A DNA stretch of 64,000 nucleotides from Lingula anatina (taxonomy: Eukaryota; Animalia; Brachiopoda). Both the position numbers and the translations under genes were made by a program. The stretch's first letter is position 1; each line of letters starts with the position of its first letter. The notes beneath the pieces were generated by a model, which was not told the DNA's origin, ran no database searches, and worked only from the letters and a program-made list of their open reading frames with translations. Of the stretch, positions 25,501 to 31,500 are shown in pieces. The stretch covers positions 20,150,001 to 20,214,000 of the forward strand of contig CM120646.1 in NCBI GenBank assembly GCA_051362555.1. Reading direction: 5' to 3'.

Positions 25501-28500
25501 TTATTCAATGTTTGCAGGAATGTAGACATAAATACCGAGTTATTAACCATAGTCTGAATCAAGCAATCCGATTGGATCTGGCCTCTCATTGGTCAGGGTG
25601 TAAGCCAATCACTGTTGACGGCCAACGCAAATTGCGTTGTCGTGGATCTAGGAACTTTAAGGCTCCTAGAGATAGATGGTGGTATATTGCAGTCAGTAAT
25701 TGTAGCACAGTGAAGGTAAGACAGTAGGTGATTGGTCAGTGGGGATCGCAGAGGCAGCTCACTGCACTGAAGCTGATTTCTGTCGGTGATTTAAACCCCG
25801 GAAATTAACTTGGTCTGCAAATTGATCATATTTTTATAACTCCCTTGCACTGTACATGTTTTGGGTTGAGCTGGGATTTATTTGATGTAAATAAATTACT
25901 GTCTATGCACAAAGTACATGGCAGTGAAGCAGGAATAATCCTTGGCTCTTGGTATAAGTGCATTGCAGTGTAAGGTGTGGTCGCAAGCCAAAAGAAAAAA
26001 AAAAAAAAAAAAAAAAGACAAGGGAGAGAAAAGAAAAAAGATCACCAGGCAAAATCAGCTTCTAATTATGTGCATTTTCCAAATCGGCTGTTCTCTGCTG
26101 TAATTTTTGTCACCTATGTAGAGCTAGTTAGCACTGTCTTATCAGTTTGATCATACTTCTTATTTTGATTATTTTCTAGACATGCTCAGAAAAGAAAGTG
26201 CCCATTGATGACGCTCGAAACCAGAAAATTACTTTATCAACTTCTTACTACTGGGCTGGCTGTAAATATGACACCACGCGGCGGCCCGGCCGACCCGTTT
26301 ACGTTTGCCAGGGCGGACGAACTTTCAAATCGTATCGCGCTCGATGGTGGTTTATTGGGTTGGCTAATTGCAGTACCACCAAGGTAAACGTCCACTGTGC
26401 TAACATGGTGCCCTAATGTGTTGTAGAACTAATATATCTTTTTTTTTCTTTTTTTGAGTGTCTGTGTGTTTTTTTTTATCACTCATACACCTAACACTAC
26501 CAAGCATGCCTTTGGTAATAGCTAGATTGAATTTTATACTAACAAAAGCCTACTAGGTAGATGTGAGCCTAGACTAATTAGCATTTTATCAATATATCAA
26601 TCTTGCACTTTTTTCACTTCTTTTTATTTATTCTTTCATTTGCGCTACAGGCTCAATTGAAAGGTTGTACTAATACCCCATGTTAACATTATTTGTATGC
26701 AAATTGACCTCGTGAATTGATTTGAAATCTATTAGTATATATTTGGAATAATATTCTTTGTGAATTGTGAATGAATTTTGCTTGTTGGATTTTTCTACTG
26801 GAATGCAATGATAATGCAAAACAATCATTCTTTTATATTTCCACAATTTGAAAAAAAAAAATTCCCTCTCCTTTTTGTTGTCGATAACAAACTAACTTTC
26901 CAACTCTTGTGATAAAACTATTTCCTTTATAAAACATCAAGGATTAAGTCATAATGATTTTGCAAAGATGGCAAGCTGATTTAATTGTCACGCAATGAAA
27001 AAGCTTTGTTCAGTTTTTACCCCAAAGAACTCGCTATGTCTGCTTTATGTGGAAGTGAACCACTTTTGTGAATTTCCTTACTAATGTTGTTTCTGATTAT
27101 AGTGAAACTAAGTTGCTTTTGAAAGCTTGAAGAACTGTGGTTGCCCTGTTGTAGGTTTAGAAGTCATCAATGTGGCTCTTTCGTCTTTTCTGCTTCTGCT
27201 GAACATTTGATTTGCTTTGTATATGTAAATGTAATTGGAGCTTTTTTTATCAATAAAAAAGACAAAATATTCAAATGCATGGATTTAACTTTATTTGCCT
27301 ATATTTTGATTTTTGTTTTGATGCAATAAACATTCTCTTCCATATGTTAATTTTGTATATTGCTTAGAAAAAGTACTTGCTTCTGTTGCAAAAATGGTTT
27401 AATTATTTTGGGCAAACTTGGCTCATATAACATGATTTAAATTAATCTTTGTCTTGGTCATGTACTATATGACAGTTGACTGTTGTCTGTAATTGGATAG
27501 AAGCAGTATACACATGTACACACACACACACATGCATGCCCGCAGGCATTCATGTACCCATATCGGTTTGATAGCTCAGACTTTCTGCTCTTCACATTAG
27601 CATACACACACATGTACGCACTCCCACACACACTTTTCTGCATGTTCAGACTTGCTGCAGCTGGTTGCTCAGCTAATATCACTAAGTTGGTGACGGGTTT
27701 TATTTACAGCTTTTTAGGCGTAAGGCTTTAGCAATATACCTAAGTTATATAACTTTACTATTATGGTTTGAGAGTTTCAACTGTGTTATTACAATGCAGG
27801 AGACTTCTGTCCCTTCACAAGTTTACCACAAGGGACTGCTGTAAACGAGCTTAATTAATTAACAGTATTGAGCACACAATAGTTAGTTAAGTAAAGCAGT
27901 TTTCAATTTCTCAAACCATACTGGTTCAGTTGTATCACTGAGATATAAAACTCGGATGATTGCTTTTTAGAAATATCTTGGTGATTCTTTACAGCTCTGC
28001 TTCTTATTTTTGCAGTGTACTTATTTTTCTGTAAAATGACAATTTCTTTAAATAGTGACAATGTTTTTATGTATTTTCAATTTTATGTCTTGTATTCATG
28101 TGTTTCTCCTAAATATGTTAATTGAATAAAAATAATTTCTCCAGAGAAGCTGCTGTAAATAGAATTAAATTAACCAGTTAGGATTCTCAGTGTTAGCATT
28201 ATTTAACCATTTAATGTGTTAACAATATCTTTTTCGTATAAATTATGGGACATTTTGCCTTAATTTTTAAATGTGAGACATCATATGCAAATATTTATCA
28301 CATTTAGTAGTACTTTTTAAAAAGTCCATCACAACATTGTTTTCAGGGTCTACAACTGGAGTACAGACTACATATGACAAATTCCAAAAATAATACCTTC
28401 TTTAGAGAATTTTCAGCGGATGAGTTCTGTAAGTACCATGGTTTTGTTATACAACTTGTATAGCTGTAAAATAATATATCATTGCTCAAACAAGTCACAT

Positions 28501-31500
28501 AAATAATGTCTACCAATAGTTTATGCAGGTTGAAATTTGTTCTGATTCAAAAGTTCCAAACAAGTTAATTTTTTGTGACTAGAAAGATGAATTCAATACA
28601 AATTTTTTAATTAGTAGAACACCGTTTTTCATGATTTTGAAAGTTCTTTGCTTTATTTCAGGTTTTTTAAAAATCTCAGCAGGATGTTATTGATCGGTTG
28701 TTCTCCATTTTGATTACATTTTCTGCTCTCTCTGTTTTCTTTTTGTTATAAATGCAAGTAAAAAGAAAAAAATGGATGGGAAAAGCTTTATTCACAGATG
28801 TGGTAGCAGACAAAGCTGGAGTACTGCTTACACTCGCCAGCTAAGCCAAATGCTTAAACTGACTGAAATGAGCTAACAAAATAGGGTTGATTTGACTTTT
28901 TAAGTCAAATTTAAACCATTTTTGGAAAAAGTTATGAAAAAGTATAGTGATTTGGCTCAGGGGGGATAATACTCCAGCAAAGAAATGCTTACCTTTCTTC
29001 ATTTTTAACTTAATTTTTCAGATATTTTGCAGACAGATATCAGTTTCTTTGTCGTATATTTCTTCATCCTCCTGGTGTCCTGCCGAGTAGCGTGTAAGTG
29101 CACACCAGGTGGCAGCACTGGACACTCACCACAGCCTTGTTTCCTCGCCTGATTTTTGTCTGTCTCTTTCAGTAGGGAAACACTCCTGTTTGGAGAATTA
29201 GGGGATTAAATTTGGCAAGTCAGTCAAACCCCCTCACCTGATCCAAAAAGGAAAAAAAAAAAATTTATGGACCTGCTAACAAGTATACAATTTGGAGCAA
29301 TTAGGTGGACATTTTCTAAAAACAGTTTGTTACTGAGAAAATGGAGTTATAAATAAAGTTTAAAAATGTGCCTAGCAGTCCAACTTTGTAACTTTTGAGT
29401 ACCCAATCTTCCCAATCTCTCCTCCCTCCCCCCTTGGGGAAAAGGATGTTCATGTCTGTCAGATAACAAGGCATGTGACATATTTTCACAAGCGAAATGA
29501 CATTAATCTTGCCACCCTAGTTCTCCAAAATTTGCTGTGGACCCTGATATCAATATATATTTATATAGTACATTTCATATGACACTTAAAGAGGAAGAGG
29601 AAGCATTTGAGAACTATATTTTTCTTCTGGAATTTCAAACACTGTTGTTATTTTCCCTTAATGAATTTGTTAAATCTGATGATACAACAACAGAACATTT
29701 TGTACATGTATGCTTCATCTTTCCTGGAAATTTTCTCATTTCCTCTTCCTCAGTTTGTCTGTATTTTACACCTTGTTCTAGCTCGTCATCATCACAGATT
29801 GGTGATTTTTGCCGGCATGTTTGGTTATTTTCAGACATACTGCAGGTGGACATCAGTTTTAGCGTCATTTACATCATTTTGCTACTGTTATCAGTATATT
29901 GTGCATGTATGTATACAATTCGTATAAAATAAAAAAAACTTTGTATAGATGTGGATGTAACTCAACATTGCCGCCCCTGGCCGTTTTCAGATCAGGATAT
30001 TTAAAAAAAAAAAAAAAAAAAACTTGTCTGTTGAATTGTGGTACCTCTGTGGTCTAAATGAACTGTTAACTTTTAAAAAAATTGGAATTGTGGTCTAAAT
30101 TGGAAATGGTATGAAGACAGCCAGGGAAGTGGTTGTGTTGGGGTGTAACAGTCAGTCACATCTAACACAACCATTTTACTCTTGTTCTTTATTCAGAGCA
30201 CAGTTGTCTTTTGACTTTATAGTTTTGGTGTATATCAGGATAGTTGAAAACAGGCAAATTCAAGTGTTTTTATCTAAATTTTTCCTTGGTATATTTTTTA
30301 AAACTACCACTGATAGTTGTTGACTTTTTCTGTTTTTTCAAAAAAAAAAAATAAAATAAAGAAAATGAAAATTAATTGCAACAAAGTCACCTACCTGATA
30401 TCTACCAAGATGATCCTAATCTGTTATGTATTCACTAACCACTTCAGACATTTTATAACTAATTACTCATCTTGTTTCTGGGTTATCTGGATTTTTTTAA
30501 TGCAGTGTCTTTTCATCTTGTTTTTCTTTTCTTGCACAATGTGTAGATATTCTGCAAGTGGACATCAGTTTTTTCCTGTGTTATCTGGTCTTGCTATGGA
30601 TATCTGCCTATGCTGCTAGTATGTACTGACCTCACATGTGTCCTAATATGTCTTACCTTTTTAATGTGTGTGGAAAAGACCTCAGTCTCTTAATAGAAAA
30701 AGAATTTACTGGTAACAATTTAAATCCTTTTGAGGTTAATTATGGATAATTCTGGCACACTTGACTCATCTTTTTTGTTTCTGGACTAAGTGTTTATATG
30801 TATGTAGGAAACTACTCAGACTAATACTTTTGCACTGTAATCATATGTGTTAGGATAAAAATTAGATCATGTTAAATGCAATATTAGACACCATAATGTA
30901 AAATGAAAAAAAAGAATATATGTTAAAGAAGACATTTCTGAGAAATAAAGTTTATTTAAAATATTTAACAAATACTACTGCAAACATATTCCTTATAACT
31001 TTTGATAATATGTGTGACATCCATTGTTTACTCAAGAGCTCATATCAGTTTAAAAATATCTCAATAGACAGGTCTGTAGCCAGCAGATTCAAAAGGGGGA
31101 CCTTTTAACCATAAAAGCTTTGTGCACCTAGATAAAATTTTACCCATTGTGGACTTTTTCTGATAAAAAAGGATGTTCCTTTAACCCCCACCCCTCCTGG
31201 CTACGGGCCTGCAATAGATATCAAGGAAATCATTGGGATGCATGTTTAAATTGACCAGTGAAATTCCTGATCATCATTTGTTCCTTGTTTCCTCTCATTC
31301 AGACATGTTGCGGAGTCGCCAGCTGTTCCATACTACATATAAGATGTACATGGTTTCCCTGGGGTGTGAGGTGATCTTCCTGCTTATCAAAGTGTCGTAC
31401 TATGCTACCTTGGCCAACACTGGCTACAAATATCCAGGAGTCAAAATATTTGGTGAGATTTCAGTAATGATGTGTGTGTGTGCGTGTGCGCGCATGCTTC

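What the first reader, a model, noticed from the sequence alone, without database searches (positions are those of the whole stretch)
25518..30618. TMEM145 with two tandem-duplicated exon clusters (2 x 3 = up to 6 receptor isoforms)
Seen: exon 4 (extracellular/luminal Cys-containing domain) exists as two diverged intact paralogs. Exon 6 (first TM helix) exists as three intact 72-nt paralogs with identical phases and a shared ILQxDISF start. All have canonical splice sites and no stops despite heavy divergence, which implies purifying selection. To my knowledge vertebrate TMEM145 has single copies of these exons. Inference: combinatorial mutually exclusive splicing diversifies both the ligand-facing domain and TM1 of an orphan GPR180/TMEM145-family protein. 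All five exons are multiples of 3, so frame/NMD cannot enforce exclusivity and another mechanism is needed (see the RNA structure findings).
Basis: partly seen in the sequence, partly recalled or inferred. Interest (0 to 1): 0.85.

Follow-up and report, generated by a model that had tools for sequence, protein, structure and literature searches.

The report
Swappable exons in cargo carrier TMEM145
The lamp-shell (Lingula) gene for the membrane protein TMEM145 carries two intact copies of one exon and three of another, transcripts seen so far use one copy at a time (two of the five copies have not yet been seen in use), and the first of these exons is also duplicated in ribbon worms, clams, a snail and amphioxus, likely letting one gene make variants that carry different cargo.

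Summary
The window holds Lingula anatina TMEM145 (514 of 515 residues match RefSeq X1/X2). Exon 4 has two intact copies (198, 204 nt) and exon 6 three (72 nt each); all are GT-AG and frame-neutral.

RNA reads from 4 runs show 24 exon 3-4B joints, no 3-4A and no 4A-4B joint; reads on 4A look unspliced. RefSeq models swap 6B and 6C. 4A and 6A were not seen spliced, yet match cross-phylum profiles as well as the used copies, with saturated synonymous sites. So 2 of 6 combinations are on record.

New here: isoform sets swap a homologous exon in 17 of 22 same-locus invertebrate sets (exon 4 in nemerteans, bivalves, a gastropod, amphioxus; exons 5, 10 elsewhere) and 0 of 10 vertebrate sets; the tree points to several origins.

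The 4A-4B intron is the most structured of 11 introns and is predicted to hide the 4A donor; classic docking-selector pairings did not beat shuffles. TMEM145 is a GOLD-domain cargo carrier, not a shown receptor. Known splicing type, new gene family; not found in print or earlier scan notes.

The parts
19530..19649 (+). TMEM145 coding exon 1 (predicted signal peptide)
   Evidence: model helix 2-22
20482..20556 (+). exon 2, GOLD domain
   Evidence: PF21892 positions 10-33; loose ends join it to exon 3 in X4 and X7
24060..24137 (+). exon 3, constitutive exon upstream of cluster 4
   Evidence: PF21892 36-57; covered in 4 of 4 runs
25518..25715 (+). exon 4A: intact second half of the GOLD domain, four Cys, one extra N-glycan sequon; not seen spliced
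   Evidence: only unspliced-looking reads in 3 of 4 runs
25715..26143 (+). predicted whole-intron hairpin; basal stem 25715-25736 (4A donor) with about 26122-26143, inner stem 25762-25793 with 26038-26075
   Evidence: prediction only
26180..26383 (+). exon 4B: the exon-4 copy in use
   Evidence: 24 exon 3-4B joints and 19 4B-exon 5 loose ends; RefSeq X1-X3
28347..28428 (+). exon 5, last GOLD strand and linker
29022..29093 (+). exon 6A: intact TM1 copy, in no transcript record
29835..29906 (+). exon 6B: TM1 copy of RefSeq X1 and X3
30547..30618 (+). exon 6C: TM1 copy of RefSeq X2
31303..31452 (+). exon 7, constitutive exon downstream of cluster 6
   Evidence: PF10192 20-67
31665..31837 (+). exon 8
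39428..39600 (+). exon 9
39874..39994 (+). exon 10 (single copy here; swapped in Lineus and four bivalves)
40347..40406 (+). exon 11
41025..41195 (+). exon 12
41442..41480 (+). alternative last coding exon (RefSeq X3)
41643..41711 (+). alternative last coding exon (RefSeq X1, X2)

Best explanation
Lingula TMEM145 holds two tandem copies of exon 4 and three of exon 6; transcripts seen so far take one copy from each cluster (4B with 6B or 6C), while 4A and 6A are likely live but rare or tissue-restricted alternatives that probably change which cargo the protein's GOLD domain and first membrane helix handle. Shown: the anatomy, frame neutrality, the 3-4B-5 path in reads, the 6B/6C swap in RefSeq models, long constraint on all five copies, and the same exon-4 swap in other invertebrates. 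Predicted: the 4A-4B intron folds end to end and buries the 4A donor, which would make 4B the default and bar a 4A-4B join; choosing 4A would need that stem opened (by a splicing factor or a rival pairing that loops out 4B). Inferred from mouse TMEM145 and Wntless: exon 4 is a four-cysteine cassette forming the variable half of the cargo-binding GOLD domain, so swapping it would retune cargo choice. How cluster 6 is kept exclusive is open; RNA pairing is the leading guess.
For: Reads (4 of 9 listed runs, 3 studies, about 6-25% of each run read, 85 reads laid): exon 3-4B joints 1+4+5+14 = 24, plus 6 short loose ends of exon 3 before 4B; 4B-exon 5 loose ends 7+4+8 = 19; no 4A-4B joint listed. 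RefSeq X1/X3 carry 6B alone, X2 6C alone. Selection: 4A-4B pS 0.83 versus pN 0.42; 6A-6B 0.85 versus 0.33; 6A-6C 0.80 versus 0.35. 4A matches 17 of 19 highly conserved columns, 4B 15 of 19; copies differ at variable columns (p 7e-6 for exon 4, 1e-4 for exon 6). Neutral mutation of 4B by 0.05 changes per site leaves 54% open and 0 of 500 reach 4A's score. Other species: 17 of 22 same-locus invertebrate isoform sets swap a homologous segment of exon size, 10 of them exon 4; 0 of 10 vertebrate sets. Genome models of Paralvinella and Mactra hold three exon-4-like hits in a row (one Mactra hit partial). 4A-4B intron: z -6.0, rank 1 of 11 introns, the 8 control introns -2.5 to +0.8; with flanks 0 of 100 shuffles as good, z -2.5; 4A donor unpaired probability 0.00, lowest of 14 donors. 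Fold: best hits TMEM87A (E 7e-8) and Wntless.
Against: No spliced 4A read in 4 runs (0 against 24; joints are listed only from 3 reads, but the depth table leaves room for at most one or so), and 4A reads that exist start in the intron. 6A is in no record, and no reads were laid on cluster 6. One 741-residue database model (P0227) joins 4A and 4B in tandem. The 6B/6C evidence is computed annotation, not reads seen here. The 4B donor is also predicted paired (0.03) although it is used. Docking-selector tests were not significant (1 of 25, 3 of 20, 9 of 20, 3 of 20 shuffles as good). Long-range pairing excess also appears in control stretches: 3 of 16 have z of -6 or lower, against -9.1 for cluster 6 and -1.8/-3.1 for cluster 4. 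The 6A-6B and 6B-6C introns fold within the control range. No cargo is known for any invertebrate TMEM145 in the papers seen.
Confidence: 0.68

Rival explanations
1. 4A and 6A were functional for a long time but have recently gone silent; the gene now makes only 4B with 6B or 6C, and the intron hairpin is what silenced 4A.
For: 0 spliced 4A reads against 24 for 4B; neither exon in 3 RefSeq isoforms; 4A donor predicted fully paired; 6B-6C are the youngest pair (pS 0.50).
Against: 4A and 6A score higher than their used siblings on profiles without Lingula; splice sites are near consensus; half of neutral simulations gain a stop in exon 4 by 0.05 changes per site; two 4A versions in P0227 differ by one residue and both are open; few reads, tissues unknown.
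Confidence: 0.17
2. All copies are used one at a time, but the variants are functionally near-equivalent; the exons duplicate often only because they are frame-neutral modules, and alternative use mainly tunes protein amount, glycosylation or stability.
For: All duplicated segments are frame-neutral; different exons (4, 5, 6, 10) are hit in different groups; exon-4-less isoforms exist in Lineus and Tubulanus; TM1 differences are mostly swaps among hydrophobic residues; 4A has an extra N-glycan sequon.
Against: Exons 2, 3, 7 and 11 are also multiples of 3 here and showed no homologous swap in 22 sets; both amphioxus copies are kept as orthologues in two species, and Mya X1 groups with Dreissena X1; some species carry whole-gene duplicates instead.
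Confidence: 0.1
3. The copies are optional cassettes that are often spliced in tandem, giving longer proteins.
For: Tandem inclusion keeps the frame; P0227 and the Paralvinella and Mactra models string copies together; introns of 464-741 nt are too long for simple steric exclusion.
Against: All 24 listed joints into 4B come from exon 3; isoform sets of 22 invertebrate loci show swaps or skips, no tandem use; an added TM1 would flip the topology of the 7-helix bundle (inference); the stringed models are unnamed or 'hypothetical' gene predictions.
Confidence: 0.04

Closest known systems
Tandem duplicated exon substitution / mutually exclusive homologous exons (PMC9741552, passages; PMC6071210, abstract, introduction and methods)
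   Same: Homologous exons of like length and phase, one used per transcript, conserved core with variable surface, recurrent origin in the same gene family across phyla, bias to membrane proteins.
   Different: No TMEM gene is named in the main text of PMC9741552 or PMC9013439 (0 hits for 'TMEM'; supplements not read). Their convergence examples are human, fly and worm, notably ion channels; here it is a GOST cargo carrier in brachiopod, nemertean, mollusc, hemichordate and amphioxus lines.
Metazoan MRP exon arrays and Dscam/srp RNA-pairing control (as summarised in PMC6071210; the primary MRP paper PMC5711460 was not held)
   Same: Multiple independent duplications across phyla; NMD and steric rules do not apply; intronic stems are candidates.
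   Different: No significant docking-selector set was found here; the best candidate is a single intron-wide hairpin over the upstream exon's donor, with no covariation or mutational test.
Mouse TMEM145 (PMC12789471, section 10 and passages) and the GOST family: TMEM87A, GPR180, Wntless (bioRxiv 2022.06.20.496907 passages; PMC11605061 section 7 and passages)
   Same: Signal peptide, GOLD beta-sandwich, seven helices; both Pfam domains above cut-off; fold matches.
   Different: Vertebrate records held show one version of each exon; the paper mentions no splicing (0 hits for 'splic'). Cargo, site of action and any link to cilia in Lingula are untested.

Membership tests
TMEM145 / GOST family | TMEM145_N (GOLD) and GPR180-TMEM145_TM domains | tested here: met
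   157 and 173.7 bits against cut-offs 28.1 and 23.7 (P0226; window rebuilds it at 514 of 515)
TMEM145 / GOST family | GOLD beta-sandwich on a seven-helix bundle | tested here: met
   model pLDDT 72, pTM 0.67; all 8 hits at E<=0.001 are TMEM87A or WLS
TMEM145 / GOST family | binds and traffics cargo through the GOLD domain | not testable with these tools
   shown for mouse only (PMC12789471)
GPCR-type signalling receptor | G-protein or arrestin signalling | not testable with these tools
   PMC11605061 states none shown for any GOST protein; profile search of PDB sequences gave nothing below E 0.2
Mutually exclusive tandem-duplicated exons | homologous adjacent exons, same phase, like length, valid splice sites | tested here: met
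Mutually exclusive tandem-duplicated exons | copies are not spliced together | tested here: inconclusive
   cluster 4: 0 4A-4B against 24 3-4B joints, low depth; cluster 6: RefSeq models only
Mutually exclusive tandem-duplicated exons | every copy is used in some transcript | tested here: inconclusive
   4B by reads, 6B and 6C by RefSeq; 4A and 6A not seen
Mutually exclusive tandem-duplicated exons | purifying selection on each copy | tested here: met
Dscam-type docking site / selector control | one docking site that pairs with a selector beside each alternative exon, beyond chance | tested here: inconclusive
   best candidates matched by 1 of 25, 3 of 20, 9 of 20 and 3 of 20 shuffles
Dscam-type docking site / selector control | conserved, covarying pairings across species | not testable with these tools
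   no related brachiopod genome held
U12/U2 incompatibility, short-intron steric block or NMD-enforced exclusion | U12 donor, very short intron or distant branch point, or frameshift on double inclusion | tested here: not met
   U2-type donors and AG-free zones of 34-41 nt; introns 464, 741, 640 nt; no frameshift; the U12 consensus is recalled

The most novel reading that the evidence does not exclude
TMEM145 is an unrecognised hotspot of convergent exon duplication: many invertebrate lines have independently made the cargo-binding half of its GOLD domain a plug-in cassette, and Lingula combines this with three TM1 versions to make up to six carriers with different cargo, with an intron-wide hairpin over the 4A donor as the switch. 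The variant cassettes would then map the cargo-specificity surface of GOST proteins.
Probability: 0.3. Interest if true: 0.72.

Novelty: new member of a known kind. Interest (0 to 1): 0.5.

Why it matters
GOST proteins are poorly understood, and TMEM145 was only lately shown to anchor and secrete hair-cell link proteins through its GOLD domain. That the same exon-4 cassette was duplicated and kept in several invertebrate lines marks it as the part under pressure to vary, and gives natural paired variants (4A/4B here; X1/X2 in amphioxus, Mya, Dreissena) with which cargo specificity can be tested directly. It also adds two unannotated candidate exons to the Lingula gene and a compact, testable RNA switch. 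The splicing type itself, and its convergence, are already well known.

Tried and rejected
No whole genome was held, so no genome-wide or orthologous-DNA test. Word-based search with 4A alone found nothing. No indexed RNA holder was listed; 9 raw-read runs came by species label, of which 4 were laid. No reads were laid on cluster 6.

Further hidden copies of exons 2-11 in the window: none. Steric, U12 and NMD explanations rejected. The apparent excess of long-range pairings over shuffles (0 of 30 shuffles as good for top-5 energy) was discounted after native control stretches showed the same. Docking-selector scans were not significant (one search finished one of four tests before its time limit; the rest were rerun). 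One ancient second copy shared by all phyla: rejected for the one assignment tested (p-AU 2e-8, group chosen after seeing the tree); other assignments untested. A 4A+4B clade is neither shown nor rejected (p-AU 0.39). P0001 (six 'stretches') is an unrelated repeat protein, and the two-GOLD proteins are a separate family, not exon-4 arrays. No 4A-containing isoform was folded. Paper searches: TMEM145 (91 papers, 30 listed); TMEM145 + mutually exclusive (3, cancer or meiosis titles, listing only); TMEM145 with duplication or splicing terms (top 15 have 0 TMEM145 mentions); Lingula + mutually exclusive + exon (26, 15 listed, none on this gene). Earlier scan notes: none on this.
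Full report
Observation. The stretch lies in a 13-exon TMEM145 gene on the + strand (coding 19530-41711). Exon 4 is present twice (25518-25715, 198 nt; 26180-26383, 204 nt; phase 0/0) and exon 6 three times (29022-29093, 29835-29906, 30547-30618; 72 nt; phase 1/1), all with AG/GT ends. Both exon-4 copies hit the same part of Pfam TMEM145_N. 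Profiles made from other species find exactly these five copies and single copies of the other 8 exons tested. All 28 single, tandem and skip combinations stay in frame.

Organism and records. The window's exons rebuild Lingula anatina RefSeq isoforms X1 (4B+6B), X2 (4B+6C) and X3 (4B+6B, other last exon) with one mismatch each. So the 6B/6C swap is already in computed annotation. 6A is in no record; 4A appears only in a 741-residue model that strings 4A and 4B together and doubles the exon 3-4A-4B block, which looks like a gene prediction on a duplicated assembly (inference).

Reads. Nine raw RNA runs were offered by species label; four, from three studies, were laid on 24000-26420 (about 6-25% of each run read, 85 reads laid). 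Exon 3 joins 4B in 24 reads (1, 4, 5, 14), with 6 more short loose ends, and 4B runs on into exon 5 in 19. No 3-4A or 4A-4B joint is listed. Reads on 4A occur in 3 of 4 runs but extend into, or pair with, the upstream intron; in X1 and X3 the exon-3 depth is fully explained by 3-4B reads, and X4 has no depth on 4A. If reads are independent, 4A is under roughly a tenth of transcripts in these pooled samples (rule of three; tissues unknown). No reads were laid on cluster 6.

Selection. 4A and 4B are 42% identical in protein, with synonymous sites saturated (pS 0.83, pN 0.42); 6A against 6B and 6C is alike, and 6B-6C is the younger pair (pS 0.50). The unseen copies fit the cross-phylum profile as well as the used ones; 4A keeps all four cysteines and 17 of 19 conserved columns, and differences fall on variable columns. 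Neutral decay destroys this quickly in simulation. This shows long constraint, but cannot exclude very recent silencing.

Other animals. I compared 36 multi-record sets (records, sets incomplete). Four invertebrate sets are whole-gene duplicates. Of the other 22 invertebrate sets, 17 swap a homologous exon-sized segment with the flanks unchanged: exon 4 in 10 sets (Lineus with three versions, Tubulanus, Mya, Dreissena, Gigantopelta, five Branchiostoma sets), exon 5 in Ptychodera and Glandiceps, exon 6 in Lingula, exon 10 in Lineus, Ostrea, Mytilus galloprovincialis, Mercenaria and Ruditapes; five show none. None of 10 vertebrate sets (8 mammals, 2 lampreys) swaps. Genome models of Paralvinella and Mactra carry three exon-4-like hits in a row. 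In a tree of 56 exon-4 segments (71 columns; 23 near-redundant or outlying rows dropped, Lingula's record replaced by the two window copies) the amphioxus copies form a supported clade with orthologous pairs in two species, the Tubulanus pair and two Lineus copies each group together, and Mya X1 groups with Dreissena X1. That points to several origins, though gene conversion could mimic it. One single-origin assignment was rejected; the Lingula pair sits on long, unresolved branches.

Protein meaning. The model of X1 shows a GOLD sandwich (about 31-170) on seven helices and matches TMEM87A and Wntless best. Exon 4 (residues 92-159) covers a short helix and four strands; exon 6 (187-210) is TM1. 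In GPR180 a loop cysteine before the last strand bonds to a small helix, and the helices and loops are the parts unique to each GOST protein (PMC11605061, section 7); by analogy exon 4 is a self-contained disulfide-tied cassette (inference; distances not measured). Mouse TMEM145 binds stereocilin by its GOLD domain and tubby by its helix bundle and promotes their secretion (PMC12789471, section 10). So the likely effect of the swap is a change of cargo rather than of a signalling ligand.

How exclusivity might work. NMD, U12 incompatibility and short-intron blocking do not apply. The 4A-4B intron is the most structured of 11 introns of the gene (z -6.0; the 8 controls -2.5 to +0.8; 15 shuffles each) and folds end to end, pairing the 4A donor with a stretch about 36-57 nt before the 4B acceptor in both best and centroid structures. 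This fits 4B as default, the missing 4A-4B joint and the unspliced 4A reads. Against it: the used 4B donor is also predicted paired, rival pairings that would loop out 4B (25944-25981 with 27996-28033; exon 4B with 27153-27183) do not beat chance, and control stretches show similar long-range pairing. For cluster 6, candidate docking sites at about 28954 and 31186 were matched by 1 of 25 and 3 of 20 shuffles. I put the hairpin switch for cluster 4 at about even odds and leave cluster 6 open.

Novelty. Mutually exclusive duplicated exons and their convergent origin are established (PMC9741552 passages; PMC6071210 first part). Four searches naming TMEM145 or Lingula found no paper on such exons in this family (subscription journals and supplements, such as gene tables of PMC9741552, not seen), and the scan's notes hold none. 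The swaps are, however, implicit in RefSeq isoform sets. Verdict: a new member of a known kind, with a cross-phylum pattern worth follow-up; interest 0.5.

Noticed in passing
window 32751-38861, minus strand (TMEM145 intron 8): An apparently intact LINE element: ORF2 of 1256 aa (endonuclease, reverse transcriptase, zf-RVT) and ORF1 of 410 aa that ends in a UPF0029 domain (31.7 bits, cut-off 27), which seems unusual for an ORF1; a long T run near 31860-31920 marks its tail.
   Followed up: partly
window 41442-41480 and 41643-41711: Two alternative last coding exons give different cytoplasmic tails (RefSeq X3 versus X1/X2).
   Followed up: partly
proteins P0015, P0033, P0051, P0060, P0094-P0099: An unnamed family with two TMEM145_N-like GOLD repeats, no seven-helix bundle and a hydrophobic C-terminal end; perhaps secreted or membrane-anchored decoys or partners.
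   Followed up: partly
P0227 (database model of this gene): Carries the exon 3-4A-4B block twice, with one residue differing in one 4A copy; the window has the block once. Likely a duplicated haplotype in an older assembly.
   Followed up: no
window 24060-26383, run X7: This run differs from the window at many sites, mostly synonymous, and over the last three codons of exon 3; it may come from a distinct population or cryptic species.
   Followed up: no
P0223, P0123: Lineus X8 and Tubulanus X4 skip exon 4 altogether, which would leave half a GOLD domain.
   Followed up: no
P0280/P0299, P0119/P0306, P0282/P0297, P0264/P0307: Potamilus, Sinanodonta, Babylonia and Argopecten have two divergent whole TMEM145 genes, another route to the same diversity.
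   Followed up: no
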